A DNA stretch of 64,000 nucleotides. Origin: Malacoraja senta. Its lineage: Eukaryota. Each line of letters opens with the position of its first letter. Within the stretch, counting starts at the first letter, position 1. Position numbers and translations under genes: made by a program. This document shows positions 1 to 58,110 of this stretch, in pieces. The stretch lies in the NCBI GenBank assembly GCA_038087875.1, contig CM075990.1, forward strand, positions 12,898,001 through 12,962,000, given 5' to 3'. Under the pieces are notes generated by a model. That model was not told where the DNA came from. It did not search any database and saw only the letters and a list, made by a program, of their open reading frames with translations.

Positions 1-1149
1 GTGAGGCAGCAACTCTACCGCCGTGCCACCCTGCCGCCCTCAGCTTTGTTCAGCTTTAAGCCCTGCTTTCTTCACCGGTCCCGCATTAAGTCTTTGCAGG
101 TTTTTTTTTCTAGTATGGTTTTTTTTTGTTTAAACCTTTTGTTTCAAATTTGCAGATCTGCAGTGTGTGGTTTTGTTTGTGTGCAGTTTGTTCTGGGCTG
201 GTAGCCAACAGCAGTTTGTGCAAAGGAGAGAGAGCGAGAGTGAGAGAGAAACAGCAAGAGCTGGGACATCAAGTCCTTGGCATTTGGCCAGCAAACGAAA
301 GGCTGTGCTCGGCACATCGTTAATCAACTCCGTTCAGTACAGTATGCTTTCCCTTGCGGCTTTGCAGAAACCTTCATAACATAATCCGCAATGCAATGTC
401 AAAGTAATGTGAGGCAGATGTGGATTGGACAGGGGTGGGGGGGGGGGGGGAGTCTTATAGAACAGTACAGAAGATGTACAGTACACAAAGTGCTGGAGTC
501 ACTCAGCGGGTCAGGCAGTATCTCTGGTGAATTACTATCTTTGATATCAAACCAGTATCTGCAGTTCCTTTCTACACATAGAACAGTACACAGGACGGAT
601 CCATGGGCCCACAATGTTTGTTCCCAACATATTGCTAAATTAAACTGATCTCATCCGCCTGCACATGATCCATATCCCTCGCCTCACTGTACTCCCATTT
701 ATCCAAAAGCCTCTTAAATGTCACTATCGTCTAAGTATCTTGATAAATAAGTTTTAAGTTTATACCGCAGAAAGCCCACAGAGCAACCAGCCCCCACAAA
801 TTGACCCAACTGGGCGTGTACTATATTTGCATTTCAAAGGCAGTTGGCAATATTTTTTAATAATGAAGCATGAGAAACGTTACATTTACAGGGGCATTAT
901 CAGATCGATCAAAAGCATCTACGAGTATTTACTCTGTTTTAAGTACAGTGATTGTTGATGATCAAGCCAGCAAGATCCCACAGGTAGGAATAATATAAAC
1001 CGTTTGTAATTAGTTGTCAAATGTTGGGGGAACCTGCGATTATCTCATCAACAACACGCATTTACATTCAGACATGAGCCTCAAGAGTATGCAAAGGTGT
1101 CATCAGTGTTGTGGAGATGCAAAAACACAGTTGAACATTTTATTTAAAT

Positions 1150-1360
1150 TGCTGGAGAAACTCAGCGGGTGCAGCAGCATCTATGGAGCGAAGGAAATAG
1201 GCAACGTTTCGGGCCGAAACCCTTCTTCAGACTGATGTAAGGGTGGGGGGGGGGGAAGAAGAAAGGAAGAGGTGGAGCCAGTGGGCTGAGGGAGAGCTGA
1301 GAAAAGACGGAGAAAGTAAGGACTACCTGAAATTAGAGAAGTCAATGTTCATATTGCTGG
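1150..1360 (-). mobile_element. Penelope-like 3' end fragment with hammerhead-like core at 1201-1234
   Basis: Reverse complement matches 52730-52950 (ATGAACATTGACTTCTCT...cagtCTGAAGAagggtttcggcccGAAAcgttgcc). Confidence 0.8.
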
Positions 1361-4370: not shown

Positions 4371-6978
4371 TGAACGATCCAGATTGTTGACTTCCTAAAG
4401 AACTACCAGCTCCAGAGGATATTATCTGGTATGATACAACTGTCCCTCCACACAGCAGTGAATTGTCATCTTAAAGCTTTATATAGTGTGATATTAAATC
4501 CAGTCTGTTAATTTTGCATCGGAAGAAACTGCAGATGCTGGTTTAAACCGGATAGACACAAGAAGCTGGAGTAACTCAGTGAGTCAGGCAGCATCTCTGG
4601 ACAAAAGGAAAAGGTGAAGTTTGGTATCGACCTGAAACATCACCTATTCCTTTTCTCCAGAGATGCTGTCTGACCCGATACGACACGATCCAATAGACCT
4701 TTATTTATCCCAGGAGGGATATTGATCTGCCAACAGTCATAAAAACCCGCAGAGTTACTCTGGCTTTTTGTGTATATCTTCTGTTAGTATTGCACATGTA
4801 CAGCATAGAAACTGGCCTTGTGGCCCATACTGTCAATGCCAACCATATTGTCTGACTACACTATTTCCATTTGCCCACATAAGGCAGGTATCTCTCCATG
4901 TCCTTCATGTCCAAGTCTCTTTTAAACGTTGTAATGTATCTGCCTCTACCACTTCCCCTGGCAGCTCATTCCATAGAAGAACTATAGGTCCATTGAAGGA
5001 TATAGAAAAACATATCCCTCAGACCACCTTTAAATCTCTCCCTTCTCATCTTAAATTGAAGCCCTCTAACTTTAAACTCCCCCCACACTAGGAGAAAGAC
5101 TCTGGCTGTCTAGCCTATCCATGCCCTTCATAATTTTATAAACCTCTTCTAGGTCACTCCTCAGCTTCCTAAATTCCAGTGAAAATAAACCAAGCCTTTC
5201 GAATCTCTCCCTATAAGCAGTTCTTTATTCCTCTTCAAACGTCTAGCTAATCTATTCATAACTGTTAACATGGTCTCTGCTTCAATTACAAACTCTAGTG
5301 GTTGAACCAATGGCTTCAAAAGGCAAAAGCAGAAACGATGAAAGAACTCAGCCAGTCAAAAGGCATTTGTGGAACACTTCCTGCAGTGTGCCTGACCTGA
5401 AACGTTAATTTATTTGAAAAGAGGACTTTCCACAAGAAATACAAAAAACAGTGCGCTGGGTTGTTTACATTCATGATATCGCCTAGTCTATACATTCATC
5501 GCGTTGTCAGGTCTGTGCATTTTGCGAATGCATTCTATGTTCAAAGCACCATTGCCTGTCATGTAGCCTCTGTGGAAATACACTCTTCAAGTGTTTCAGT
5601 GGCTGTGTCACAGGACCTGGCTCTCCAGTGTCTTGTAATTACAGGAACCTAGTTTACAGTGCTTTCCCTCTAAGTCTTTAGACCATGAGGCATTGGAGCA
5701 GAATTAGCCTGTTCGGCCCATCGAGTCTACTCCGCCATTCTATCATGATCGATCTATTTTTTCTTCTCAACCCCATTCTATACTACCTTCTCCCCGTAAC
5801 CTTTGATGCCCTTACTAATCAAGAACCTATCAATCTCCGCTTTAAATATACCCAATGTCTTGGGCTCCACAAAATGAATTGCACAGATTCACCTCCCTCT
5901 GGCTAAATAAATTCCTCCTCATCTCCTCCTTTGTTTTGGCCACACCCAGTTTCAGTTTGTCCACCAACATGAAGTCTTGCTTCTAGACAGTGCAGAAACA
6001 GGCCCTTTGGCCCACCGAGTCCACGACGACCAGCGATCATCCCGTAGACTAACACTATCCTACACAACAGGGACAATTTACAATGTAACCAAAGCCAATT
6101 AACCTGCAAACCTGTACGTCTTTGTACTTTCCACACTGGTTGAGTTCCTCAATAATTTTTAGTTGTTTTATATTCCAGCATCTGCATTTTTAGGGGGTTT
6201 TCCCCAACTTCAAGCATCCCTGGGCAGTTTCACCTACTCTCAGTACTAAAGGTCTCACATTCCTCTTGTTAAATATATTGAGATCTTTTACAACTACACA
6301 CCAGGAGAGCTCTGTTAAATGGTTCTTCCAGAAAACAACACGTCTGTGGTCAGCGCTCCCTCACTTTTGCACACGAAGGTCTGTGTTTTGCAAAAGGTTA
6401 CGGGGAGGGAGAGGACGGGAGAATAAGGTTGAGAGGGAAAAATAGATCGGCCATGATGGAATGGCAGAGCGGATTTGATGGGTCGCATGGCTTAATTCTG
6501 CTCCTATATCTTATGAACTTGTGCATCTCCTTCTAGACCCCCTCAACTAATTCACACTGTGCAGATTCTTAAACTTGGTACATAATGTATATAATTGTAA
6601 ATGGAAAGAGCTGTCTTTACTGTAGCCACCCTCAGGATGTCCCAGCGCTCTTTACAATCAATACACTGCTTCTGAAATGCAGTCGCAGTTGTAATAAAGG
6701 AAGTAGGGTCACAGGGCGGATCTTGGTCAATGTGCCCAACCTTTCCCTTGTGCAAAGGAAGCTCTCACAGATGGTCGGACTGGTGATAATAACCAGATCA
6801 TGTTTTTTAAGTCATGTTGATTAAGAGATTAATATCAGCCAAGGCACTATGAATGCCTGACTCAGCTTCTTCGGTATAATATCTTGAGATTGTTTACATC
6901 TCCACACCAGGAGTTCATGTCACACAGCAGAGTGCTTTGTTACATGGTTCATCCAGAAAGCAACATTTCTGAGGGCAG

Positions 6979-7186
6979 GTAGACAAAAATGCTGGAGAAA
7001 CTCAGCGGGTGAGGCAGCATCTATGGAGCGAAGGAAATAGGCAACGTTTCGGGTCGAAACCCTTCATCAGTCTGAACCGAAACGTTGCCTATTTCCTTCG
7101 CTCCATAGAAGCTGCCTCACCCGCTGAGTTTCTCCAGCATTTTTGTCTACCTTCGATTTTCCAGCATCTGCAGTTCCTCCTTCTTA
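6979..7186. mobile_element. Inverted dimer of Penelope terminal repeat
   Basis: ~85-bp inverted arms; TSD aacattt(c/t)tgagggcag at 6962-6978 / 7187-7203; CTGATGA-gggtttcgaccc-GAAA core on the minus strand at 7041-7070. Confidence 0.88.
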
Positions 7187-8339
7187 AACATTTTTGAGGG
7201 CAGCGTTCCTCACCATTGCACTCGAAGAGCAGAGTTTTGTACTCCGGATCTATGAGTGAAATGAGCCAACAATCTTCCGACTTATTGCCCTGACTGGTAC
7301 CAGCAGAGACATAGCCAGCATTGATGATTAATTATGTGAGAATTATCTTGAGAAGTCAATTCCAGATGGGTGATAAAAATCTTCCTCGGTTCCCAACTAA
7401 TTCCTGAATCCCTAACCTTAATGTGTGGGAAGGAACTGCAGATGCTGGTTTATACTGAAGATAGACTCAAAATGCTGGAGTAACTCAGCGAGCCAGGCAG
7501 CATCTCCGGAGAGAAGGAATGGGTGATGTTTGGGGTCAGAACCCTTCTTCAGTTAATTATTTATATTTACAGTCCATCAAGTAAATTTTTCATTTGTTAC
7601 TTTTTTGCATATCTTTCCTTCATTTGTTCTAAATCTCACTTTAAGCACTTTAAGACTGCTCTTTCGGAAGTATCACTCAGGTCAACAGTGATCTATTCGG
7701 TTAGGCTGCTGTTAGAGCCTCCTTATATTTGGTTCCACGGAATATAGTAAATGCAACTCTATAGGGAGGAGGGGAGATGACAGGGGAGGAGAGGTGATGA
7801 GGGGAGTAGATGAGTTGAATGGGAGAAAGTAGGAGGGAAGAGGGGAGAGGTGGAGAGGAGAGCTAGATAGGGCTCTTAAAGATAGCGGAGTCAGGGGATA
7901 TGGGGAGAAGGCAGGAACGGGGTACTGATTGGGGATGATCAGCCATGATCACATTGAATGGTGGTGCTGGCTCGATGGGCCGAATGGCCCACTCCTGCAC
8001 CTATTGTCTATTGTCTATTGTCTTTGGTCACTACATCAATGTCTATATCTCTTGTTTCCTTTTCCCTTGACTCTCAGTCTGATGAAGGGTCTCGACCTGA
8101 AGTGTCACCTATTCCTTTTCTCCAGAGATGCTGCGTGACTCCAGCTTTTTGTATCTATCTTAAGTAAATAAACTAAATGGATAGGCCCTTTCTCATGTTT
8201 ATTTTTTTATTCCCACAGTAGGGATATCAAAAAGAAGAAGGTATAGGTTTAAGGGTGGAGGACAGAGTTTTAAAGGGGATTTGAGGGGAAAGTTTTTTCA
8301 CAGAGAATGGTTGATATCTGGAACTCACTGCAAAGGAGG

Positions 8340-12943: not shown

Positions 12944-14662
12944 CCTCAAAATACTACTGCAATAGAAGCGGCGGTGAATTTTATCACCAATATCTGTCAT
13001 TGCTGAGGTGTCTGCTGGAATATGTAAAGATAACTATATTTTCAAGTGATAGACACAAAAACCTGGAGTAACTCAGTGGGTCAGACAGACTTTTCCTTGG
13101 AGAAAAGGAATCGATGACGTTTTGGGCTGAGACCCTTCTTCAGTCTTTACTCCAGCTTTTTGTGTCTATCTTGGGTTAAAACCAGCAAATGCAGTTCTTT
13201 ATTAAACATTTTCCAGCACCTTGTTGTAGGTCTTGATTGTTGATGGAGTTGTTGCAAAGGGAGCAAGTTGTTCGATATCCTTATGGTGTGCTTCTGGTGT
13301 CTGATGTTAGCTATATAAATGCCCTCTGTTTGTGTGTGTGCATGTGTGCGGTGTGTGTGTGTGTGCGTATGCGTGTGTGTATGTATGTGTGTACACTGAT
13401 GTGATCAACACACTGTGGCATTGTGTGACCTTATTTCAACTTTCTTCAGATTGACCCGACCTGAAACATCACCTATCCTTGTTCCCCAGAGATGCTGCCC
13501 GAACTGTCGAGTTACTCCAACACTTTGTGTAAACCAGCATTTACAGTTCCTTGCGTCTACATATAAATGATGTGACCGTCCCCACTGGACTCAGCTGGGA
13601 GCCCCAATGCTGCCCTTGGAGAGGACAATGTATCTGTCACCTATCCTTTCCATGGATTCCCTTGACTTTGCAAAGATAACAATGGTGCTGTGTGTCCAGT
13701 TCCTTGAAATGCCTGCTGTGGGTTGCTCAGTTCCAAGCCACATGGAGAGCAGGGATCACTGTGACTCAGCAGACCACGAGAGTGGTGGGGGTACTATAGT
13801 TAGAACTGCCTTCCCTGCTGTTCCACCACGTTCAGACTCGCCACTACAGCCTCATGTGTTTCCTCCCTGACGGATTCCTACCCGAAACCTTGCCTGTCCA
13901 TTCCCTCCACAGATGCTGCCTGACCGGTTACCTGACTGACTGGTCAGCACGCAACGTTAGTTCTTCACTCTACCTCGGGACACGTGACAAACTCAAACTC
14001 AAACCTGCAGAGCTACTCCACGACTTTGTGTTGTGCATGAGATTGCTGTGCGTATGAAAATTAATCTTCAAGTATTCTTTTGTGGTGGTGAATCTGTGGA
14101 ATCCCTCGCCACAGACGGCTGCGGAGGCCAAGTCATTGGATATTTTTACGGTGCAGATTGATAGATTCTTGATTAGTACGGGTGTCAGAGGTTATGGGGA
14201 GATGGCAGGAGAATGGGGTTGAGAGGGAACGATAGATCAGCCATGTTTGAATGGCGGAGTAGACTTGATGGGCCGAATGGCCTAATTCTGCTCCTGTAAC
14301 TTATGAACTTGTGAACTTGGCCTCAAAAATACTACTGCAATAGAAGCGGCGGTGAATTTCATCACCAATATCTGTCATTGCTGAGGTGTCTGCTGGAATA
14401 TGTAAAGATAACTATATTTTCAAGTGATAGACACAAAAACCTGGAGTAACTCAGTGGGTCAGACAGACTTTTCCTTGGAGAAAAGGAATCGGTGACGTTT
14501 TGAGCTGAGACCCTTCTTCAGTCTTTACTCCAGCTTTTTGTGTCTATCTTGGGTTAAAACCAGCAAATGCAATTCTTTATTAAACATTTTCCAGCACCTT
14601 GTTGTAGGTCTTGATTGTTGGTGGAGTTGTTGCAAAGGGAGCAAGTTGTTCGATATCCTTAT
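12944..14662 (+). repeat. ~340-bp near-identical direct repeat (12944-13284 and 14321-14662)
   Basis: The two copies differ by only a handful of bases by eye. Confidence 0.92.
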
Positions 14663-16998: not shown

Positions 16999-17104
16999 TA
17001 AAGGTGCACATTTCTGCATCGGCTGTCACCATGTCTCAAAATGAGTCCTGTGGAGAAGTAAAAGCTGCCCAGTCCGCCTAAACCTGCCCGATCTTCTGGT
17101 TGCT

Positions 17105-18435
17105 AAACATTTTAACTCCCCCTCCCATTCCCACACTGACCTCTCTGTCCTGGGCCTCCTCCACTGCACCTCATATTTTGCATGGGCAGCTTACACCCCA
17201 GCGGTATGAATATTGACTTCTCTAACCAAGTAATCCTTGCTTTCCCCCTCTCTCCATCCCTCCCCCTTCCTAGTTCTCTGACCAGTCTGACTGCCCCCAG
17301 ATTACATTTTATCTCTGTACGCTTCGTTGTCACCTTCTCCTCGCTAACAATGATCTATTCTACATTCTCCTTGAACCCATCCCCTTTGATATCTTGTTTT
17401 CACACCTTACACTTACTCTTGCTATCTTGTTTGGGAGTGGCGGCGCCTAACGGCAACGGCTCAACTACAGTCGTCCGTCTTTTTATTTATTTTTGTCTTG
17501 TTAACTGTATGTCTTGAGCTTAGTTTTTATTATTTTTTATTAGTGTATATGTGGGGGGTGGAGGGGGGGATGTGGGGAAACCGTTAATCTCTTCCCTGTA
17601 CGGGGACCCGACTTTTTCCCTGTTGGGTCTCCGGTGTCGTTGGGCCTAACATTGTGGAGCCGGCGCCGGCCTCCGGCCGGGACCAACCTGAGGGCTCCAG
17701 TCGCGGAGCCTGGGACCTGACGTCGCGGAGTTGGCCGGCTTTGGAGCGGGGAGAGCTGTGGTGGCGCTCGGCTGCGACCCGACTTTGGAGTTTCGGAAGC
17801 TCCGGCTGCGGGCCCGGTGGACAGGAACATCGGGAGCTCCAGGTCCCTGGTGGGAGACGGCTTTTCGGAGCTCCCGCAACGGCAACTTCTCCCGCTGGAA
17901 TCGCGAGGTTTGGAGGACACGGAGCGAGGCCTAACATCGCCCGGCGCGGGTTGGCGGCCATGGGACTTACCATCGTCCGCCGGGGGCTCTAACATCGGAG
18001 CCCCAGTTCGCCTCGACGCTGCAGTTGGACTGCTGGACCGCGGGTGAAGAATAAAGGGAAGAGATAAGACTTTGCCTTCCATCACAGTGAGGAGGTGTTG
18101 GAGACTCACTGTGATGGATGTTTATGTAAACTGTGTTAAGTGTGGGTCTTGGTTTTTTTTGTAAAGTAAAAAACTGTAGTAATGATATTTCGTTCAAGCC
18201 TAGGTTTGAATGACAATAAATAACATTCTATTGTTTTCACACCTTACTCTGTGTCTCCCTCTCCTCTGACTCTCTGTCTGAAGAAGGGTGTCGACCCAAA
18301 AACGCCACCCATTCGTACTATCCAGTAACTCAGCAGGTCAGGCAGTATCTGTAGATGACCTGAACTCCAGAGGGAGCTACTCCTGCACTTTGTGTTTTTT
18401 TTGCAAACCAGCATCTGCAGTTCCTTGTGTCTGCT
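17105..18435 (+). mobile_element. Degraded Penelope-like 3' fragment (GIY-YIG C-terminus + terminal repeat), split by an 820-bp insertion at 17411-18230
   Basis: 17105-17225 aligns by eye with 52590-52750; terminal repeat resumes after 18231. Confidence 0.8.
17411..18230 (+). mobile_element. GC/CpG-rich non-coding retroposon of unassigned family
   Basis: 17-bp TSD ttgttttcacaccttac (17394-17410 / 18231-18247); 3' hairpin ccatcacagtgag...ctcactgtgatgg; gacaataaa tail. Confidence 0.8.
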
Positions 18436-20763
18436 GTGGATAAGTAAACTTGTATGTATTGTAGAAAAAACAGCAGCCAAACCGTTCACAGTAAACTCCC
18501 AGCGTCTGCAGTGACCAACACATGTATTTTAGTGTTATTTAGTGAGGGGAAATATTTGGTTCGAACACAAGGAAGATTTTTTTTTTCTCTTTAAAATGTG
18601 CTGTGATGTGTTTCACATCCATTCATGAGAGCTTTGGTATAATATTCAAAAGCCAGTACTTCACTCATTTATCACTTTAGTTTAATTTAAGGGATCTAGC
18701 ATGAGTAATAGGCCCTTCGGTCCATCAAGTCCATGCTGACCATCGATCAACCATTCACTTTAGTGCTGCATTGCCCCATTTTACTATCCACTCCCTACAC
18801 ACTAGGGGCAATTTACAGAAGCTGATTGTTGGCTTCAACTCACAATTAACAAGAAGCCAATACCAAACCCACACATCTTTGGGATGTGGGAGGAAACCAG
18901 TGCACTCGAAGGAAACCAACGCAGTCACAGGGAGACTGTGCAAACTCCACACAGGCAGCACCGTGCTGCCCATCCTTCTACTCCCGTTCCCTCCTACCTC
19001 TCCTCTTTCCTTCCCTCCCCCTCCTCTCCTCTTCTCCCCCTCCCTCCCGCTCCTCCCTCTCCTCCCCTTCCTCCCCCTCCCCCCTTCGCTCTCCCTCCCC
19101 CCCTCTCCTCCCCCCTCACACCCTCTCCTCCCCCTCCCCCCTCCTGCCCGCTCCACCCCCTCCCCCCATCCATATACATGTTCACCAGCCTGCTTGCTCG
19201 ACAGATTATCCATTCAAAATGATGATTGCACCCTGCAGCTCTCCACAGCATGGTGCAGGAGCCTGCTGGTACACTGCTTTAATTAAACACCACAGGATAA
19301 TTAGTCTTCAAGATCACATTGACAGTAAACTTTTATTCTTTGAGTCTGAAGAAGCGACTCGACCTGCAACGTCACCCATTCCTTCTCTCCAGAGAGGCTG
19401 CCTGTCCCGCTGAGTTACTCCAGCATTTTGTGTCTATCTTTTATTCTTTGGAATCTTTTGTATAATGAAGAACGCCTTTAACAATGATTCTTGAATGAGC
19501 TGAATCGAATTTCATTGATGCAAAATGTGTCGAAAATACTATCTGAGATTTCAATCACTTTGTTCTGCTATTTTGGAGGAACAATGAATTCAGACGCCAG
19601 CAAATGGCAGAAAGATTGTGTGTGAAAAGCTGAATGTTGATTATCTTAGTATTATTATTGAATTGCTTAATACAATTCTTTCAGTACGTCTCTGAAGGAT
19701 ATGTCGCGAAAAGTGCAACTTATTTTCTTTATCATTTCACATTAATAATCTAACGTATTTTTTTAAAGATTGGTTTGCAGCGTGTTATCTTGCTTTGTGA
19801 CCTAGATCGTGGCGAATGTCTTCAATTACTTGGCATTGTGGAGTATAATTAACATGTCATTAAATGTGTGGCATTATGTGTCTCCAATGTTTATCACGAA
19901 TAATGCAAACTTTGCAATTTAGACGGCTTGTTGCTTAGCCACAAGTCAAATAAGAGCTTAGTTGTGTCTATGTGAAAAAAACAGCACTGTAGAATCTGCC
20001 GAGGTGTTTGTGCTCACGTTTGCAGTGTGAGACTTTTGTGTCAAGAGTTGAGACAAGAGTGCTTATTTATTATAGGCACTGGATATGAAACAGAACAAAG
20101 ACATACTTAAAGGTAGACAAAAGTGCTGGAGAAACTCAGCGGGTGCAGCAGCATCTATGGAGCGAAGGAAATAGGCAACGTTTCGGGCCGAAACCCTTCT
20201 CCAGCACTATTGTCTACCTTCGATTTTCCAGCATCTGCAGTTCCTTCTTAAAGACAAACTTAAGACAGACACAAAATGTTGGAGTACCTCAGCGGGACAG
20301 GCAGCATCTCCGGAGGTGCTTTCAAGAGAGAGTTAGATAGAGCTCTTAAAAATAGCAGAGTCAGGGGATATGGGGAGAAGGCAGGAACGGTGTACTGATT
20401 GTGGATGATTAGCCATGATCACAGTGAATGGCGGTGCTGGCTCGAAGGGCCGAATGGCCTACTCCTGCACCTATTGTCTATTGAGAGAAGGAATGGGTGA
20501 CGTTTGGGGTTGAGTCCCTTCCCCAGACTCGGCCCCAAGCGTCACCCATTCCTTCTCTCCAGAGATGCTGCCTGACCCGCTGAGTTACTCCAGCATTTTG
20601 TGTTTATCTTCGGTTTAAACCAACATCTGCAGTTCTTTCCTACACAGGTCAGTAACTGTATTGGATGGAGCAACGTCTATCACTTTCTGAAGCTCCCTTT
20701 GTTCTCAAGCATTTTTGAATTTCCAATAGGTGGCAGGGTCAGAGGTGTGAAAGAGATCAGCAC

Positions 20764-21389: not shown

Positions 21390-22029
21390 CACTGAGCCAC
21401 AACCAGCACTGCCCCGACACTGCACTGAACTGCTTTATACAATGTGTACAATCTCTCAGAAGATTGACACAAAATGCTGGAGTAACTCAGCAGGGGCCGG
21501 CAGCATTTCTGGATTGAAGGAATGGGTGACGTTTCGTGGTCGAGACTCTTCCTCAGACTGACACTTCTTCCTCAGTCTGAAGAAGGGTCTCGATCTGAGA
21601 CATCACCCATTCCTTCTCTCTGGAGACGCTGCCTGTCCCTGCTGAGTTACTCCAACATTTTGTGTCTATCTTCGGTTTAAACCAGCATCTGCAGTTCCTT
21701 CCTGTAAAATCTCTCCAGCAGGCTCCTCGGATTCAGCTGATAATAAGGGCTATAAAAATAAATGACTGGCTTTCAAAAGGAATGTGGCCTTTCCCTTTTA
21801 TTTGCTTGTAACGTCTTGTAGCTTCTTAAATTTCATTTATTTGGAATAAACATACCTCTCAGGCAGCCTGCTTATGTAATGAAAGACATCTCGTCTTACA
21901 GAATGACGATGGACAGATGGTGCTTACAGGAGTAAAAGGACAAGAGATTAAGGCATGTAGCAAATGCCTGGGTGAAGCAAAGGATTTAGTCAAAGCAGAG
22001 AGAGCTGGCTTCACACATACACTGTTGAA

Positions 22030-24460: not shown

Positions 24461-26021
24461 AAACTCTCTTGACTCTTGACTTGACTCTTGACGTCCGAGC
24501 CCGGGTGGTGTTAGAAAGGGACATGGTTGTATTGGAGTTATTTAGTATATTTGTAACATAGTCGTTTGGAAATTAAGTTCCTGAATAATTTGGTGATTTT
24601 GTAACACGGTGGCGGGTGTGTCACCATGGTTTGGTTTTGTACCGTGATAGTAATTCAATAAATTATTTTTGATACTAAAATAAAAGACGAGAAGCGTTTT
24701 AATCAAAGGTGTGTGAAGCTGCGGAATTCTCACGTTGAGTGTTTTGAATGTTGGGATGGATATCTGTGGCACCAGAAGAGACATGGGGGAAAAAGGCATA
24801 GTGTTGGAGGAACTCAGCAGGTCAAACAGCACCACTGGCAACTGAGGGATTGGCGATGTTTCGATCCACATCGTGGCTGTTTGGGTGTGAACGTGGAGGA
24901 GACAATAGATTATCCATGAACGGTGGGGCGGGTAAAAGGGGCTGGAAGGTCTACTCATCTTTCTGTTTCTAACATTGTCCTATTTTCTTTGAGGTGGCTA
25001 TAAAAGATATGGTGACTCTGCTTTGAATGTAGCTCCACCAACTGGGTCTTTGTTTGGAATGACCTGGCCTGACTAAGACGCCTCGCTCTCTCCTCTCGGT
25101 AGCCTCCGAAGGTTTCAAGTGGACAATCAGGAGAGAGGGGAATTTGTCGCTCTGCATGACTGATGGTGGATCTCTCGCTGGTGGATCAGACGGTCACCTC
25201 CACCAAGGCCACTTGGTCAAGAGTTGACTGCTGTCTTCAGGGCAAATTGAACCAGGGATCTCAGGTGAGTGCGATCAATGAAGGGTGATTGTTCCCTGCA
25301 CGGCACAAGCGGCAGGAAGCGTCTGCAGTTGGGTGAGTCATCAGTCTGACCGCAAGACTTGTTACCACAGCACATCCCATGCCATACACAGAGTGTGGCT
25401 TCTGCTGCCATGACATCAATGACGTTAGTTAGTCACTATCAGACTCTGCATGTTACTGCAATATGCAAGGCCACATAAAATCATTTCCCCTCTGCTAGAA
25501 ATGATGTAGAATTACATTGGCAATCGATTGCACCAGATTTCTTGACTCAAATCATTTACTGAAAATGAAAGGTAGGGCGGATATTATTCAGACTCTTGCA
25601 CAATCTCAGGCTTCCAGTAACCTCATGCGCATTCACCTGCCTTTGTGCCTAATCCTCTGAATCTCTCCATAGTCTGCCACTGCCCATCTCCTTAGCTTCC
25701 TCCAACCCAACTAAAGCCCCTGCTCCTCAACTTGTTCTTCTCTGCACTCACCTTCAATACCCCTCCCCCCCCCCCCGCCCCCATCCCCACTTTCACCCAC
25801 CAAATCTCAGTGATTCTACCTTCAGCCACAACGTCTCAAACTCTGCCGTTCCATCCATCAAACTCTCTGTTTTTCCGATTCCTCCTTAAACAAACCTTTG
25901 GCTGAAGATTTTATCACCTATCCGAAGATTTGAAAAAAAAGGTTTTTTTCAAAACATTCCTTTGGCCAATCAATTTATCACCTCTTGAAACATGTTTTCA
26001 AAAGTACTTGCATCGTGACAG

Positions 26022-26207
26022 GTAGACGAAAATGCTGGAGAAACTCAGCGGGTGAGGCAGCATGTATGGAGCGAAGGAATAGGTGACGTCTCGACCCGAA
26101 ACGTCGCCTATTTCCTTCGCTCCATAGATGCTGCCTCACCCGCTGAGTTTCTCCAGCATTTTTGTTCACCGTCAATTTTTCCAGCATCTGCAGTTCCTTC
26201 TTAAACA
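26022..26207. mobile_element. Inverted dimer of Penelope terminal repeat
   Basis: Inverted arms; exact TSD tgcatcgtgacag at 26009-26021 / 26208-26220. Confidence 0.88.
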
Positions 26208-26665: not shown

Positions 26666-27407
26666 CTATGTTTTACTAATGTTATTGAGAGGCAACGATT
26701 GGTGAGGACACTAGGATAACAGACTGAAGAAGGGTCATGACCCAAAACATCACCTATCCATGTTCTCCAGAGATGCTGCCTGACCTGCTGAGTTACACTA
26801 GTACTGAGCCTTTTTTTTGTAGACCACCACCTGCAGTTCCTTGTTCCTACACTAAGATACAGGTAACTCCTCAGTTTAAAAAAAAACTGAGATCATTTTA
26901 AACTGAGATCATTTATAACTACCCAAAAGGCAGCAGAGATTTAGTTTGACAATCAACGTATATGACATTGGTGGCGGGGCCAAGTTTGTTGATGGGTGGA
27001 CTTGTGGCTGCTTAAAAGGGTATAGATAAGCTGTGGTAGACACAAAATGCTGGAGTAACTCAGCGGGACAGGCAGCATCTCTGGAGAGAAGGAATGGGTG
27101 ACGTTTTGGGTTGAGACCCTTCTTCAGACTGGTGATCTATATCCTATAGATGAGCTGGGAGTGGTCAAGAATATGATAGATGGAATATACTAATTTTATG
27201 TGGACTTTGTTCCTAAAAATGGGGACCAGAGTAAGTGAATCGAGGACCACAGGACATATGTTTACGGTGAAGGGGAAAAGATTTAATAGGAATCTGAGGG
27301 GTAACTTTTTCACACAAAAGGTGATGGGTGTACGGAACGAGCTGACAGAGGAGGCCGTTGAGGCATGAACTATCCCGATGTTGAAGAAACAGTTAGACAG
27401 GTAAATG

Positions 27408-27619
27408 TTTAAGAAGGAGCTGCAGATGCTGGAAAATCGAAGGTAGACAAAAGTGCTGGAGAAACTCAGTGGGTGCCGCAGCATCTAAGGAGCGAAGGAA
27501 ATAGGCAACGTTTTGGGCCGAAACGTCTGATGAAGGGTTTCAGCCCGAATCGTTGCCTATTTCCTTCGCTCCTTAGATGCTGCTGCACCCGCTGAGTTTC
27601 TCCAGCACTTTTGTCTACC
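27408..27619. mobile_element. Inverted dimer of Penelope terminal repeat inserted in a CR1 fragment
   Basis: TSD ttagacaggtaaatg at 27393-27407 / 27620-27634. Confidence 0.88.
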
Positions 27620-29942
27620 TTAGACAGGTAAATGGATAGGACAGGTTTGGTGGGATATGGGCCAAACACAGGCAGGTGGGACATGTTGGGGCAAGTTGGG
27701 CTGAGGGGCCTGTTTCCAAGCTGTGTGACTAATGGCTCCATCTGAATGAACAATTTTGTTTGAAGTAATTTGGGACCTTTGGGTTAGGGTTGCCTCCACT
27801 GAAGGGTGAAAGGAATTCAAGTGAATGCAGCCAGAAGGGTCCCACTCCAGATGAAACAAGGAAGTGTTTTTTTGTATCTACAGTGTGGTACACATCTGGA
27901 AGGTACTGACTGAGGGGCTGGTGGAGGCAGGAACACTCACAACATTGAAGGCCTATATAGACAAGGACCTGAAGCACCATGCAAAGTGCTGGAAAATAGG
28001 ATTAATAGGGAAAAGTACCCAAAGGTCAGATGAAGGATTGTGGACCAAAGGGTCAATTTCCTTGCTGTATGATGCTGGGACTCCATGAAAGGCATTGTGA
28101 ATTTCCAGCTGAGTTAGCTGACTCCATTCGAAAGGGTGGCTAACTGAGAGGCTGAACAGATAATATTAATTTAAAGGACATCAATTATGGCATTGAGCTT
28201 CTTTTGAATCATCAAAAACCTTTTTAATGAGCGGTGATCAAGGCGGTCGACACGATGGAGGAGCAGAAAGACGTACACCGCCCTGGCCACGCTCTCATTT
28301 CGCGACTACTATCGGCAAGAAGGAGCCTGAAATCCTTGACCGCCAGGTTTAAGAACAGTTTCTTCCCAACAAACATCAGGCCCTTGAGCACAACGCAACA
28401 CTAACCTCTGGTATGTAAAATAGCAATCTGGAGAAAATTTCCGATCCCAAAACGTCACCCATTTTGTTTTCACCAGAGATGCTGCCAGACCTGTTGAGTT
28501 ACTCCAGCACTTTGTGTCTAACAACACTAACCTCAGCAATTATTATCTTCTATGGACCGTGTTCTTGACCGCACCTTGTATTTTGTTTTTTGCACTTTTA
28601 TGGTTACCATAAATGATTGTGTTTTTGGCTATTATATATTTATCTATGAGTTATTACATTTACAGGCTTGTTAAGCTGCACCAAGTAAGGATTTCATTGT
28701 TCCATTGCCTGTTCACATGGCAAAGAAACACTCTTGACACCCTTTGAACAGATCCGCCTAATTTACAACCTCCCTACTCTGTACTCCCATTGCCTTCGAC
28801 CTGTAGACAACCTGGATTATGGTTACAGTTCACCCACATGACAAAGTTGCACATTCTGATTTTTCAGACCTCAATTTGAACAAAGAAAAAATACAAGACC
28901 GTCAAGTCAAGTCAGGTCGAGCTTGTTGTCAAATTCACAAGTTCGATTAGGTACAGGCTCAATGTGAACCTTGCTTGCAGCAACATCAGAGACACAAAGA
29001 CTTAGACAAACACAAGAAACATAAATTAGACATGAATTATTCATATAACTACACCCAAAATTCTGCACAAAAAAAAGAAGACTCTGCAAAAAAAGAATTG
29101 GCATAAAACAATTACCATTACTGGTAAAGAAAGCAGACAGTGTGCACTTGCTTTCATGGCTTGGGGCATTGAGTATAAGAGTCAGGAAGGCACAATGCAG
29201 CTTTGTAGGACTTTGGTTATGCCACATTTGGAGTATTACATGCAGTTCTGGTTACCCCCGTTACAGGAAGGATGTGGAGGCGATGGAAATGGTGCAGAGG
29301 ATGTTTACCAGAATGACGCCTGGATTCGGGGCTATTAGCTGCAGGGAGAGGTGGGATAGATTTGCATTGTTTTCTCTGCAATGCTGGAGGTTACGCGGAG
29401 ATCTGATAGGAGTATATAAAATTAGGCAGCATCTCTGGAGAGAAGGAATGGGTGACGCTTCGGGTCGAGACCCTTCTTCAGAATGCTGCCTGGGCCCGCT
29501 GAGTTACTCTAGCTTTTTGTGTCTATCTTCAATGAAATGGCACAGTGGATAGTGCTGCTGCTTCACAGATGCAGCGATCCGGGTTAGATACTGAGCTCGG
29601 TTACTGTCTGTGTGGAGCTTGCACGTTGTCCCTAAACCCCATGTGGATTTTTTCCCCCGAGTCCTCTACTTCCAAGTCCCAAAGGCGTGCTGGTTGGCAT
29701 GCTGCAAATGGCTCATGTTATAGCTGTGTCTCCAGGGGACTGTTCATTAACATGTGTGATGGAACAGATGACAGGGAAATGGGTGGTGGGATGGGATTGA
29801 TGGATTGCTATGTGTACAAGAACAGGCTTGTTGGGTCAAATGAGTTCCTTCTTGGTTGTAAGAAAATATATATGACGTGTCGTAGCTGCTGTAACGTTGG
29901 AAACGCAGCAGCTAATATGCACACTTTAAACCTACCCATGGC

Positions 29943-35607: not shown

Positions 35608-35808
35608 GACAAAATTGCTGGAGAAACTCAGCGGGTGAGGCAGCATCTATGGAGCGAAGGAATAGGTGACGTTTCGGGTCGAGACCCTTCTTCAGACCGA
35701 AACGTCACATATTCCTTCGCTCCATAGATGCTGCCTCACCCGCTGAGTTTCTCCAGCATTTTTGTCTACCTTCGATTTTTCCAGCATCTGCAGTTCTTTC
35801 TTAAACAT
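35608..35808. mobile_element. Inverted dimer of Penelope terminal repeat with intact hammerhead-like core (minus strand, 35665-35697)
   Basis: Minus strand ggtCTGAAGAagggtctcgacccGAAAcgtcacc; inverted arms; boundaries approximate. Confidence 0.82.
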
Positions 35809-49404: not shown

Positions 49405-50966
49405 CTGTCATAACACAAAGAGAGAGTTCATCAGCAACTTGCATTTAGAACGCAGTACCATACAGCACCGGAACAGGCCCTTCTGCCCACAATATCTGTG
49501 CCCAACATGATGCCAAGCTAAGCTAACTCAATGTGTCCATAGCCCTCCATTCCTGGCATATCCATGTACTTATCTAAAAGCATCGTAACTATCATATCTT
49601 CACCTCACCACCCCTGCACATTCCAGGCACCCACTGCAATCTGTGCAAAAAAAATTGCCCCACACATCTCCTTTTAACTTTTTCCCTTTCACCTTAAGGT
49701 TATGCTCTCTAGTCTTAGACATATCCACCCTGGGAAAAAAGGTTCTGACGGTCTACCCCATCTATGACTCTCCAAATGTTGTATATTTCTATCAGGATTC
49801 CCCTCAGCTTATGTTGTTCCAGGTACACATATTCAAATTTGTCCAACCCCTCCCTACTAACTTGAGGTGCCGAATGGCCTACTCCTGCAACTATTGTCTA
49901 TTGTCTAGCTAATAATCCCTCAGCATTAATTCTTCTTCGTTCATGTCCATCTTCCATGTTACAAATGTTGGCCTCGCTGTCATCGTCCGTCCTGAAAAGG
50001 ACGCAAACTTCCGGCGACAATCAGTGGGAGCAATCCCTTGTTGCAATAGATGATGGTGGTAGCAGGATTAGCTCGGGATACTTCCAGTTTCCAGTCCCGC
50101 GACGTGGACGCTTCTGCTATGGGGCTGGGCAGCATTCATTCATAAATCATGTTTTCAAACAAAGCTGAGTTACAAGGGTTTCCAACCAAATGTTTGGTCA
50201 CGGTATTGGGGTACATGCTTGTCCCTGGTTACCCATATGAAACACTGCCTCTGAAATACAGTGCCATCATCTTTAATGGAACTGCTGCTAAAAGAGTTTT
50301 TCGGAGGGGAGAGAGTGGAGAAATAGACAGGCTTGGGGAGGGAGTTCTCCACATTTAGGACCTGGACGCTGAAAGCAGAGTCAGCAATAGAAACCAGAGA
50401 GGCACAAGAGGTCAGAATTGGAGGAATGCAGAGAACTGAAAGGTATGTAGTTCTGCAGGAGATTGCAGATGGATGGCACAGCAGAGCAGTCACTAGAGCA
50501 GCTGCCTCTCAGCTCCAGTGACCCGGGTTCAATCCTGTTTTCTAATACTGTGGGGGGTTTTTTTTGCAGTATTTTTCCATTGTCTTTCACAGAATTTATG
50601 TATAATTTATGTCCTTGCGTGTTGCCAAAGTCTATGTGCCTGTGAGGTTATTGCAAAGAAGATTTTCACTGTATCTGTATCTCACTGTACTTGTGCATAT
50701 GACACTAAACTCAACTTCATTTGTCTTGACCTCCAAAGGTGTCTATGTGGAGCTTGCACGTTCTCCCTGTTACCATGTGTGTTTCTTTTGGCAGGGGCGG
50801 AAATCGCTGTCAAAACATGGGGGGGGGGGGACACAATTTCTTGGTGGATAGTGTGGGGATCACTGGTCGGCGCAGATTCGGTGGGCCAAAGGGCTTGTAT
50901 CTCTAAAACTAAAACTGAAACATCAGCCATGAAGTAAGGGAGCGTCCCCAAATGCCTGCAACGTAC

Positions 50967-51185
50967 TTTCTCTCCAGAAGCAGAAGCACCACTCGGCCAT
51001 GGAGACCTGCCCATCCCGGTAGGTGTCGCAGGAGTTGAAGAATGGCCTCACGCAGACCTCGTACTTGTCCAGGTTGATGGCCGCAAGCTCGGTTGCGTCC
51101 AGAAACATGTCCACATCCGTATCCAGCTTGGAGAACATCCAGCCAATGGAATCCCTGCAGCTCGCCACCAGACCCTTGTCCAACA
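50967..51185 (-). CDS. SPOCK2: SPOCK2 coding exon (EF-hand pair of the EC domain)
   Basis: Acceptor ctccatag|TG, donor GAAA|gtacgt; 219 nt, phase 1 to 1; VLDKGLVASCRDSIGWMFSKLDTDVDMFLDATELAAINLDKYEVCVRPFFNSCDTYRDGQVSMAEWCFCFWRE. Confidence 0.97.
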
Positions 51186-51249
51186 CTATGGAGAGAAGGA
51201 GCAGAGGTTACAATAACAGGGAACCAGAGCTAGGATTGAATAATCAAGG

Positions 51250-53310
51250 CTAATTCCCGGGATGGCGGGACTGTCATATGCTGAGAGAATGGAGCGGCTG
51301 GGCTTGTACAATCTGGAGTTTAGAAGAATGAGAGGGAATCTTCTTGAAACATGTAAGATTATTAAGGGTTTGGACACGTTAGAGGCAGGAAACATGTTCC
51401 CAATGTTCCCAATCACTGTACACCTCCATCCCCCACCAGGATGGTCTCGAAGCCCTCTGTTTTTTCCTCAACCAGAGAAGCAACCTATACCCGGCCACTG
51501 ACACCCTCCTCCGCCTAGCGGAGCTGGTCCTTACCCACAATAACTTCTCATTTGACTTCTCCCATTTCCTCCAAATACAAGGCGTAGCTATGGGCACACG
51601 CATGGGCCCCAGCTACGCCTGCCTCTTTGTCGGGTACGTAGAACAATCCTTGTTCAATACGTACCTGGGCCCCATCCCCGACCTCTACCTCCGCTACATC
51701 GATGACTGTTTTGGTGCCACCTCCTGCACCCACACACAACTGACTGACTTCATCCGCTTCACCACCAACTTCCATCCGGCACTCAAATACACCTGGACCA
51801 TTTCCGACACTTCCCTACCATTCCTTGACCTCACTATCTCCATCGCAGGTGATAGACTTCTTACCGACATCCATTACAAACCTACCGACTCCCATGGCTA
51901 TCTGGACTACACTTCTTCCCACCCTGCTTCCTGTAAGGATTCCATCCCCCACTCCCAATTCCTCCGTCTACGCCGCATCTGCTCCCAGGATGAGGCGTTC
52001 CACACCAGGGCATCCGAAATGTCCTCATTCTTCAGGGAACGGGGATTCCCCTCCTCCACCATAGATGAGGCTCGCACCAGGGTCTCTGCCATACCCCGCA
52101 ACACTGCTCTCTCTCCCCATCCCACCACTCACAACAAGGGCAGAGTCCCCCTAGTCCTCACCTTTCACCCCACCAGCCGTCACATACAACAAGTGATCCT
52201 CCGTCAGTTTCGCCACCTCCAACGTGACCCCACCACTCGCCACATCTTCCCATCACCCCCCATGTCTGCCTTCCGCAAAGACCGCTCCCTCCGTAACTCC
52301 CTTGTCAATTCTTCCCTTCCCTCCCGTACCACCCCCTTCCCGGGTACTTTCCCTTGCAACCGCAAGAGATGCAACACTTGTCCCTTCACCTCCCCCCTCG
52401 ACTCCATTCAAGGACCTAAGCAGTCGTTCCAGGTTCAGAGGTTCACCTGCATCTCCTCCAACCACCTCATCTATTGCATCCGCTGCTCTAGATGTCAGCT
52501 GATCTACATCGGTGAGACCAAGCATAGGCTTGGCGATTGTTTCGCCGAACACCTCCGGTCGGTCCGCAATAACCAACCTGACCTCCCGGTGGCTCAGCAC
52601 TTCAACTCCCCCTCCCATTCCGTATCTGACCTCTCTGTCCTGGGTCTCCTCCATGGCCACAGCGAGCAACACCGGAAATTGGAGGAAATGCACCTCATAT
52701 TCCGCTTGGGCAGTCTACATCCTGGGGGCATGAACATTGATTTCTCCCAATTCTGCTAGCCCTTGCTGACCCCTCCCCTTCATCAGCCCTCTGGTTGTCT
52801 CCTCCCATCCCCCAGCCCTCGGGCTCCTCCTCCGCCTTTTTCCTTTCTTCTCCCCACCCCCTATCAGTCTGAAGAAGGGTTTCGGCCCGAAACATTGCCT
52901 ATTTCCTTCGCTCCATAGATGCTGCTGCACCCGCTGAGTTTCTCCAGCATTTTTGTGTACCTTCGATTTTCCAGCATCTGCAGTTCCTTCTTTAACAACA
53001 TGTTCCCAATGTTGGGGGAGTCCAGAACCAGGGGCCACAGTTTAAGAATAAGGGGTAAGCCATTTAGAACGGAGATGAGGAAACACTTTTTCTCACAGAG
53101 AGTTGTGGGTCTGTGGGATTCTCTGCCTCAGAGGGCGGTGGAGGCCGGTTCTCTGGATACGTTCAAGAGAGAGCTAGATAGGGCTCTTAAAGATAGCGGA
53201 GTCAGGGGATATGGGGAGAAGGCAGGAACGGGGTACTGCTTGGGGATGATCAGCCATGATCACATTGAAAGGCGGTGTTGGCTCGAAGGGCCGAATGGCC
53301 TACTCCTGCC
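51250..53310 (+). mobile_element. CR1 3' fragment split by the Penelope-like insertion
   Basis: MAGLSYAERMERLGLYNLEFRRMRGNL... continues after 52997 as MFPMLGESRTRGHSLRIRG. Confidence 0.88.
51408..52996 (+). mobile_element. 5'-truncated Penelope-like retroelement (RT C-terminal part + GIY-YIG endonuclease + 3' terminal repeat) nested in a CR1 fragment in a SPOCK2 intron
   Basis: Stop-free frame 51413-52759 with SLYTSIP, GVAMGTRMGPSYA, YLRYIDD, IHYKPT and IYCIRCSRCQLIYIGET; flanked by a 17-bp duplication aacatgttcccaatgtt (51391-51407 / 52997-53013). Confidence 0.93.
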
Positions 53311-57860: not shown

Positions 57861-57988
57861 AAGGTAGACAAAAGTGCTGGAGAAACTCAGCGGGTGCAGC
57901 AACATCTCCATAGATGCTGCTGCACCCGCTGAGTTTCTCCAGCACTTTTGTCTACCTTTGATTTTCCAGCATCTGCAGTTCCTTCTTA
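57861..57988. mobile_element. Short inverted dimer of Penelope terminal repeat (hammerhead core absent)
   Basis: TSD aatgcagagacttt at 57847-57860 / 57989-58002. Confidence 0.85.
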
Positions 57989-58110
57989 AATGCAGAGACT
58001 TTGATGTTTATTCTCCATTGTTTGCAAAACCCTGACTCCAAACTTCACCGCAAGTAGTTCCTACCTTGGGGGAAACAGAGCTATTGTTGGAAGGATTGTT
58101 ATGGTTCAAG

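What the first reader, a model, noticed from the sequence alone, without database searches (positions are those of the whole stretch)
52861..52996. The window's most common short repeat is a Penelope 3' terminus carrying a minimal hammerhead-ribozyme core
Seen: the ~130-bp repeat scattered many times across the window is the same sequence that ends the RT/GIY-YIG element. It starts with CTGA(A/T)GA-a-GGGT-(T/C)TCG-(A/G)CCC-GAAA-C-GT(C/T): a hammerhead core, a 4-bp stem II with tetraloop, and a vestigial, partly palindromic (AACGTT) helix III. Cleanest copies are 7041-7070, 1201-1234 and 35665-35697 (all minus); this copy reads AACATT. Established: Penelope-like pseudo-LTRs carry minimal type I hammerhead motifs thought to work as dimers. 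Inference: a high-copy, non-coding, ribozyme-derived family mobilised by the Penelope RT. Caveat: helix I is only ~2-3 bp here, so cleavage is doubtful.
Basis: partly seen in the sequence, partly recalled or inferred. Interest (0 to 1): 0.72.

Follow-up and report, generated by a model that had tools for sequence, protein, structure and literature searches.

The report
Penelope retrotransposon ends with minimal hammerhead
This common short repeat is the broken-off end of a Penelope-type jumping gene in a shark- or ray-like genome, and it carries a small, probably self-cutting "hammerhead" RNA motif already known from such elements in other animals; the one odd feature is that about half the pieces begin right at the motif's first letters.

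Summary
Confirmed, and of a known kind. 52861-52996 ends a 5'-truncated Neptune-type Penelope element (RT + GIY-YIG, 17-bp target duplication). The same sequence occurs as 71 pieces at about 50 loci, 9.3% of the window. The minimal type I hammerhead is real: 24 of 50 distant relatives carry it 81-160 nt after the stop codon (controls 1, 0, 0.1), and stem II and helix I covary. Most window copies are decayed: 3 of 24 keep the whole motif, and this copy has a CpG-type hit in helix III. The short copies show the published Penelope signatures: two 3' ends about 33 nt apart, head-to-head inverted pairs, target duplications. They look like truncated insertion products rather than a separate ribozyme family. 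Unexplained: 28 of 60 arms begin within 11 nt of the hammerhead's start, and only 1 begins at the cut site. So the copied RNA was uncleaved, and its 5' end may be an Inr-like site at 52866. Cleavage was not tested. This scan noted such hammerheads before in two other genomes, shark-type by those notes.

The parts
51391..51407 (+). Left target-site duplication (17 bp) of the long Penelope insertion, inside a LINE-like (CR1-like, recalled) repeat
   Evidence: identical to 52997-53013
51410..52759 (+). 5'-truncated Penelope-like ORF: RT C-terminal part and thumb, C-X4-C-X2-C linker, GIY-YIG endonuclease
   Evidence: open frame; 903 homologues, named best hits from sharks and rays at 62-67% identity, many with PF00078 or PF01541; alignment; Pfam on this fragment itself only weak, GIY-YIG E=0.045
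52760..52860 (+). Pyrimidine-rich 3' UTR linker between stop codon and hammerhead; missing from most short copies
52864..52870 (+). Inr-like TCAGTCT (consensus recalled); its A at 52866 lies at the common 5' boundary of short copies; putative RNA start (inferred)
   Evidence: 5' ends pile up at q4-q14; loose ends before 52863-52867 in all four runs
52867..52898 (+). Minimal type I hammerhead: helix I 52867-68 with 52897-98; core 52869-75; extra A 52876; stem II 52877-80 with 52885-88; GAAA 52889-92; zero-loop helix III 52892-95 (G>A at 52894 in this copy); predicted cut 52896/52897
   Evidence: 52894 is G in most other copies
52917..52963 (+). pLTR body after the hammerhead, ending at the inner (tail-less) 3' end at about 52961-52964; holds the first CCAGCAT motif (52944-52950)
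   Evidence: 23 of 60 arms end at q96-110; loose ends behind 52961-52964 in four runs; motif positions
52964..52996 (+). About 33-nt Penelope 'tail' with the second CCAGCAT motif (52971-52977); outer 3' end
   Evidence: 30 of 60 arms end at q>=121 and none at q111-120
52997..53013 (+). Right target-site duplication; LINE-like repeat resumes
1146..1352 (-). Tail-less copy that runs from the ORF's last codons through the linker; intact hammerhead at 1197-1236
6977..7189 (.). Head-to-head pair: tail-less minus arm with intact hammerhead (7037-7076) plus tailed plus arm; 17-bp duplication with one mismatch
35609..35806 (.). Head-to-head pair; minus arm has an intact hammerhead (35662-35701); no clear duplication
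21459..21701 (.). Head-to-head pair in which both arms reach q4, so the same RNA segment was copied twice; 13-bp duplication
26018..26206 (.). Head-to-head pair with 16-bp duplication
27407..27624 (.). Head-to-head pair with exact 14-bp duplication
19343..19440 (+). Solo tail-less copy that starts at the Inr-like A (q6) directly after a >=10-bp duplication

Best explanation
The repeat is the 3' pseudo-LTR of several related Neptune-type Penelope-like retrotransposon subfamilies of an elasmobranch genome. The hammerhead is an old, selected part of that pseudo-LTR. Mechanism: (1) the element's GIY-YIG domain makes a staggered cut, giving 10-17 bp duplications (duplications shown; enzyme inferred). 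(2) The RT primes at two internal sites about 33 nt apart, giving tailed and tail-less 3' ends (two ends shown; priming known from the Anolis element). (3) When both cut strands prime, one at each site, the cDNAs join head to head, often by microhomology (structure shown; order inferred). (4) The template is uncleaved RNA, since copies keep the whole ribozyme (shown). (5) About half the cDNAs stop at the hammerhead's first bases, most likely because that is the RNA's 5' end at an Inr-like site, so they are short run-off copies (pile-up shown; cause inferred, about 50%). The ribozyme probably cuts only as a dimer through its palindrome and with help from the element's protein (from the literature, not tested here). 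Nearly all genomic copies, this one included, are decaying relics.
For: ORF, linker motif and 17-bp duplication. Hammerhead 81-160 nt after the stop in 24 of 50 relatives at about 40-50% protein identity; controls 1, 0 and 0.1. A further 13 of the other 26 have it with <=2 core mismatches; controls 0 and 0. Covariation on 14 sequences: 94.6% of cells paired against 71.4% shuffled and <=44.6% slid; 6 of 8 pairs show two-sided changes. 3' ends are bimodal: 23 at q96-110, 0 at q111-120, 30 at q>=121, 7 shorter, of 60. Of 17 head-to-head loci counted by eye (one duplicated locus counted once), none has a tail on both arms, 13 have one tailed and one tail-less arm, and 4 are truncated. 5' ends: 28 of 60 at q4-q14 against 3.2 expected from the downstream drop-off rate, and 1 at the cut site. 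The same three boundaries appear as loose ends in four public runs. Tail, inversion and min-HHR are described in PMC8557442, PMC3846280, PMC4209133 and PMC11167929.
Against: No cleavage data. Monomer and dimer minimum-energy folds do not give the hammerhead fold. Inside the window there is no two-sided stem II change, and 0 of 10 core columns against 18 of 86 downstream columns are subfamily-diagnostic, which is not significant (p=0.20). The automatic duplication test was positive (>=11 bp) in only 4 of 15 head-to-head and 4 of 35 other loci (null 1%); more were seen only by eye. The 5' pile-up is not evident in a relative family from the metagenome loci: 3 of 18 extra copies start at -9 to 0, in an ORF-selected sample. 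No RNA start pile-up was seen (table 6). The HMM starts at q9 and the linker is divergent, which can sharpen the apparent boundary.
Confidence: 0.8

Rival explanations
1. The short copies are a non-autonomous, SINE-like family of their own: solo pLTR masters starting at about 52866 are transcribed and copied in trans by the Penelope protein.
For: Sharp 5' boundary. Summed depth over the repeat is 3.4 and 4.2 times (DNA contigs) and 8.6 and 8.3 times (RNA reads) that over the endonuclease region, though depth is not copy number. Several subfamilies exist. PMC3846280 reports that pLTRs suffice in cis.
Against: Four arms of at least two subfamilies run on into the linker. The long copy's end is 90-98% identical to many short arms. 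There is no sense bias over the repeat in the apparently stranded run, 3085 against 2776. No tRNA, 5S or 7SL match was found on any copy.
Confidence: 0.25
2. The 5' pile-up arises because the RT falls off or switches template at the folded or dimerised hammerhead. The palindrome would act as an RNA dimerisation signal that brings two templates to the two cut DNA strands.
For: Both arms of a pair can copy the same segment (21459-21701), which needs two templates or re-use of one. Joints cluster in and around the motif. The intact palindrome gives a duplex of -3.5 kcal/mol against +2.8 for this copy's variant. The Anolis protein is predicted to be a dimer.
Against: An RT should stall at the 3' side of stem II (about q29), but most stops lie just past the whole motif; 13 of 60 arms start at q18-29 against 28 at q4-14. 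The duplex is weak.
Confidence: 0.25
3. The boundary is a 3' splice site (pyrimidine tract plus CAG at 52865-52867) of a pLTR intron, as in Drosophila virilis Penelope, and short copies come from spliced RNA.
For: The sequence looks like an acceptor, and a donor-like site overlaps the stop codon in the copy at 1146-1352. A precedent exists.
Against: Several clean copies start at the AG itself (q6), with no shared upstream exon. No AG precedes the core in the relatives. No such joint is among the 15 joints shown, with 200 more not shown.
Confidence: 0.1
4. A retrozyme: hammerhead cleavage and circularisation define the monomer, which is copied by rolling circle.
For: Head-to-tail joints 52963 to 52867 (97 nt) occur in 2 and 6 DNA contigs. 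The bioRxiv preprint reports retrozymes in one chondrichthyan.
Against: Copy ends do not fall at the cut site (1 of 60). The joint is not at the cut site. The window has no tandem array of full units. Helix I is 2 bp, not about 6.
Confidence: 0.06
5. The hammerhead likeness is chance.
For: No Rfam hammerhead match; no two-sided change within the window.
Against: Positional conservation and covariation in distant relatives whose flanks do not align.
Confidence: 0.02

Closest known systems
Minimal type I hammerheads (min-HHR) of metazoan Penelope-like pseudo-LTRs (Cervera and de la Pena 2014, PMC4209133; Lunse et al., title seen in a reference list only)
   Same: Core, extra nucleotide before stem II, G10.1-C11.1 pair, palindromic 15.2-16.2 with no loop 3, place in the pLTR, mostly single dispersed motifs, some opposite-strand pairs.
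   Different: Helix I is 2 bp and stem II 4 bp (the Schistosoma motifs have 4-5 and 7-8 bp; the D. virilis variant also has a 2-bp helix I). No shark or skate entry was found in the 2 supplement files searched; 1 file was not searchable.
Neptune clade of endonuclease-containing Penelope-like elements (PMC8557442)
   Same: RT followed by a CX2-5CXXC linker and C-terminal GIY-YIG; 5' truncation; inverted 5' copy; 30-40 bp tail at one end only; target duplications.
   Different: Here very short (about 100-130 bp arm) products dominate and share a 5' boundary. No tree was built to separate Neptune from Nematis.
Poseidon element of Anolis carolinensis (PAc; PMC11167929)
   Same: Two RT start sites that define the tail; both DNA strands cut and extended; uncleaved RNA is the main template; no RNA ends at the cut site.
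   Different: Different clade. In PAc the ORF start lies inside the hammerhead; the ORF start is not present in this window. The parts read do not describe a 5' pile-up of genomic copies.
Animal non-LTR retrozymes (bioRxiv 10.64898/2026.07.22.740005)
   Same: Non-coding hammerhead-bearing sequences derived from Penelope pLTRs, with dispersed monomers.
   Different: Defined by head-to-tail arrays with a hammerhead in each unit; here copies are solo or head-to-head with Penelope tails.

Membership tests
Minimal type I hammerhead of Penelope-like elements | Core CUGANGA ... GAAA ... UH | tested here: met
   Focal copy and consensus; invariant in all 14 aligned sequences, which were chosen for having it
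Minimal type I hammerhead of Penelope-like elements | Extra nucleotide between A9 and 10.1, and a G10.1-C11.1 pair | tested here: met
   A at 52876; G-C in 14 of 14
Minimal type I hammerhead of Penelope-like elements | Palindromic 15.2-16.2 with no or tiny loop 3 | tested here: met
   Met for the family (34 of 47 arms keep G16.2; majority letter in four runs); not met by the focal copy itself (G>A at 52894)
Minimal type I hammerhead of Penelope-like elements | Covariation of helices I and II between families | tested here: met
   6 of 8 pairs with two-sided changes; 94.6% paired against <=44.6% for slid controls. No two-sided stem II change within the window alone
Minimal type I hammerhead of Penelope-like elements | Located in the pseudo-LTR downstream of the RT/endonuclease ORF | tested here: met
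   About 110 nt after the stop here; 81-160 nt in 24 of 50 relatives
Minimal type I hammerhead of Penelope-like elements | Self-cleavage as a dimer or with protein help | not testable with these tools
   No assay; no end pile-up in fragmented RNA-seq, which is insensitive
Endonuclease-containing Penelope-like element, Neptune type | Single ORF with RT and C-terminal GIY-YIG | tested here: met
   direct Pfam hit on the fragment weak
Endonuclease-containing Penelope-like element, Neptune type | CX2-5CXXC linker between RT and endonuclease | tested here: met
   C-X4-C-X2-C present and conserved; shared with Nematis
Endonuclease-containing Penelope-like element, Neptune type | 30-40 bp tail at one end, inverted 5' copy, target duplications | tested here: met
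Endonuclease-containing Penelope-like element, Neptune type | RT phylogeny places it in Neptune rather than Nematis | not tested
   No tree with named references was built
Non-LTR retrozyme | Two or more head-to-tail units, each with a complete hammerhead | tested here: not met
   None in the window; a few 97-nt head-to-tail joints in DNA contigs of two runs
Non-LTR retrozyme | Circular RNA monomer defined by the cut site | tested here: inconclusive
   DNA copy ends are not at the cut site; circular RNA could not be assayed
Classical SINE | Head derived from tRNA, 5S or 7SL RNA | tested here: not met
   No such Rfam match on any copy at E<=1
Non-autonomous Penelope derivative | Own master copies (short copies form private clades) | not tested
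   No whole genome is held for this window

The most novel reading that the evidence does not exclude
In sharks and rays the Penelope RNA starts at an Inr-like site three bases before the hammerhead core, which would explain the 2-bp helix I. Priming at the two tail sites of this 5' pseudo-LTR gives 100- and 130-nt run-off cDNAs, akin to retroviral strong-stop DNA, that integrate singly or as head-to-head pairs made from two RNAs held together by the hammerhead palindrome or a protein dimer. The minimal hammerhead would then serve as an RNA-pairing signal for integration as much as a nuclease, and these by-products would be one of the commonest short repeats of these genomes.
Probability: 0.25. 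Interest if true: 0.6.

Novelty: new member of a known kind. Interest (0 to 1): 0.27.

Why it matters
The hammerhead-in-Penelope link is published, so the motif itself only extends it to a repeat that fills about 9% of this window of a cartilaginous-fish genome. The useful part is the anatomy of the short copies. Very many dead insertions with two fixed 3' ends, one fixed 5' end and head-to-head joints are a natural record of how Penelope elements integrate, a mechanism still poorly worked out. They agree with the in vitro result that uncleaved RNA is copied, and they make the transcript start and a two-template model directly testable.

Tried and rejected
No whole genome was available, so copy statistics rest on the 64-kb window and on public runs. 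Rfam gave no hammerhead match; its miRNA-like hits on head-to-head pairs are only long hairpins. Pfam gave nothing at E<=0.001 for the ORF fragment. The viral contigs held no relative. Per-column conservation among window copies favoured the core (0.95 against 0.87, p=0.012), but I do not rely on it: local alignments favour matches at their edge and dead copies evolve neutrally. The subfamily-diagnostic test was not significant. A consensus structure downstream of the hammerhead had almost no covariation support (1 of 12 pairs, covariation term -0.03). The splice-acceptor idea found no support in relatives or in the joints shown. No RNA holder on record was listed by the run search. Cleavage-defined 5' ends were rejected for DNA copies. 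Generality of the 5' pile-up was not supported in one relative family. Paper searches for a shark or skate report, for solo pLTRs and for head-to-head non-autonomous forms found no description of this family or of the 5' pile-up in the listings. The library lacks most subscription papers, and Repbase and Dfam were not searched.

Full report
Verdict. The stretch 52861-52996 is the 3' end of a Penelope-like retrotransposon, and it carries a minimal type I hammerhead of the published kind. The short copies are best read as truncated insertion products of such elements. One feature, a sharp shared 5' boundary, is not explained by what I read. q-numbers below count from 52861 = q1.

The parent element. 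An open frame at 51410-52759 encodes the C-terminal part of an RT, a C-X4-C-X2-C linker and a GIY-YIG domain. It has 903 homologues among 4,428 candidates; the best named ones come from sharks and rays at 62-67% identity, so the host is probably an elasmobranch (inference). Pfam on the fragment itself is weak (GIY-YIG E=0.045; nothing at 0.001). The linker marks the Neptune and Nematis clades (PMC8557442, passages). The 1.59-kb insertion sits in another repeat between two identical 17-bp copies at 51391-51407 and 52997-53013.

Abundance. BLAST with the 136 bases gives about 50 hits. A profile HMM finds 71 arms at E<=0.01 and none in the reversed window. They fall in about 50 loci and cover 9.3% of the window. 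It is the deepest interspersed repeat in self-BLAST.

The motif in the window. The core, extra A, 4-bp stem II, GAAA and C-G-U-H lie at 52869-52896, with the predicted cut at 52896/52897. Losses fall largely on CpG positions. This copy's AACATT is such a change, since G is read at 52894 in 82-91% of depth in four runs. Within the window, the subfamily differences (loop, an A/G change that keeps the last stem II pair, H17 and 1.1) and the few N7 variants are all tolerated ones, but there is no two-sided change, and the core-versus-downstream test is not significant (p=0.20). Rfam has no matching hammerhead model at E<=1. Minimum-energy folds prefer another pairing.

The motif in relatives, the decisive test. 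An alignment of 32 proteins retrieved 79 metagenome loci, the best 80 of 366 confirmed matches, at about 40-50% protein identity. Of these, 57 included the ORF end and 50 had at least 150 nt downstream; 7 short ones were dropped. A strict descriptor matched 24 of 50, always 81-160 nt after the stop. Controls gave 1 (opposite strand), 0 (upstream) and 0.1 (shuffles). Many of these loci belong to one family, so they are not 24 independent events. A relaxed search found the motif in 13 of the other 26, controls 0 and 0. On 14 sequences (3 from the window, 11 relatives picked for diversity and for having the motif), 94.6% of cells pair, against 71.4% in shuffles and at most 44.6% when partners are slid. 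Six of 8 pairs change on both sides, three in helix I and three in stem II. A short helix I is therefore normal for this class. A covariance model from that alignment finds 31 motifs in the window (three of them were training sequences).

Anatomy of the short copies. Among 60 arms (score >=25, one duplicated locus removed), 3' ends are bimodal: 23 at q96-110, none at q111-120, 30 at q>=121 and 7 shorter. Each end lies shortly after a CCAGCAT motif, at q84 and q111. Of 17 head-to-head loci that I counted by eye pair a tailed with a tail-less arm, 4 are truncated and none has two tails. Duplications of >=11 bp were found automatically at 4 of 15 head-to-head and 4 of 35 other loci (null 1%); further ones (57861-57990, 20110-20252) were seen by eye. 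These are the known Penelope signatures: an inverted 5'-truncated copy and a 30-40 bp tail at one end (PMC8557442 and PMC3846280, passages). The tail equals the gap between two RT start sites in the Anolis element (PMC11167929, parts 1-2 of 4).

The 5' boundary. Of the 60 arms, 28 start at q18-79, 28 stop within q4-q14 and 4 run on into the linker. The downstream drop-off rate predicts 3.2 stops in that interval (p about 3e-24; 8e-8 at five times the rate). Only one arm starts at the cut site. In four public runs, loose ends lie before 52863-52867 and behind 52961-52964 (one also behind 52992), and depth rises 2.5- to 27-fold at 52862. Caveats: the HMM begins at q9; the linker is divergent; depth is not copy number; X15 may be the window's own sample; the other three runs carry different organism labels. 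The boundary sits on TCAGTCT, which fits the Inr consensus as I recall it, with A+1 at 52866; Inr-like sites in pLTRs are reported. A start there would leave three bases before the core and explain the 2-bp helix I. Against generality, extra copies of one relative family start widely: 3 of 18 at -9 to 0, 7 at +13 to +45, 8 further upstream (ORF-selected loci). RNA-seq showed no start or end pile-up and no sense bias over the repeat. Those libraries are fragmented and mostly reflect read-through, so this says little about starts.

How it most likely works. The element's endonuclease cuts both strands and the RT primes at one or both tail sites on uncleaved RNA. Long products give copies like the one at 51410-52996; short ones run off at, or stall in, the hammerhead and integrate alone or head to head. 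That uncleaved RNA is copied agrees with the Anolis data, where ribozyme mutants still insert and cleavage needs the protein. Whether this ribozyme cuts was not tested. Published minimal motifs cut weakly and only as dimers (PMC4209133, parts 1-2 of 4; review PMC6765202, passages). The Lunse paper was seen only as a title in a reference list.

Comparison and novelty. It works like, and by the testable features is, a Penelope minimal hammerhead. It fails the retrozyme test of tandem units in this window (definition in the bioRxiv preprint, parts 1-3 of 5). That preprint reports retrozymes in one chondrichthyan; its supplements were not seen and may list this family. Searches showed no paper on this family or on the 5' pile-up, but Repbase, Dfam and most subscription papers were out of reach. 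Two earlier notes of this scan report the same kind of motif in other genomes; they came after my reading and I did not check their DNA. I file it as a new member of a known kind, interest 0.27.

Noticed in passing
window 50061-50138 (minus): HDV-like ribozyme candidate: Rfam CPEB3_ribozyme, 31.3 bits (gathering 35), E=1.4e-6 on a local search. Single copy by self-BLAST; same strand as the SPARC-domain exon about 0.8 kb away, so probably intronic. A second, unrelated ribozyme class in the window, worth its own look.
   Followed up: partly
window 50968-51186 (minus): Exon encoding a SPARC calcium-binding domain (PF10591, E=6e-23); resembles a testican/SPOCK gene (name recalled). Part of the window is probably intronic to it.
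   Followed up: partly
window 17072-17420 (+): Fragment of a second Penelope subfamily: endonuclease end plus a longer pyrimidine 3' UTR, interrupted at about 17430 by another insert; a similar UTR stretch and a hammerhead copy resume at about 18195-18426.
   Followed up: partly
window 13048-13199 and 14426-14577: Two near-identical head-to-head loci with shared flanks, that is a local duplication of about 1.4 kb spacing.
   Followed up: no
window 52547-52800, run X21: Over the ORF end, first mates on + outnumber those on - by about 2.2 to 1, which by the usual convention means more antisense RNA; over the repeat the ratio is about 1.1. Library orientation is not known.
   Followed up: no
window 52893-52971 and 52963-52867, public runs: A recurring 75-77 nt skip from the GAAAC region to the tail in both RNA runs, and 97-nt head-to-tail joints in DNA contigs of two runs.
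   Followed up: no
L007 family, for example L007 4225-4395: A relative family also shows two 3' ends, at about +86 to +93 and +142 to +149 from the core, so a tail of about 55 nt, longer than the usual 30-40.
   Followed up: partly
proteins P0005 and P0013: Read-through C-termini of these database proteins spell what looks like the hammerhead region in translation, which suggests gene models running into pLTRs.
   Followed up: no
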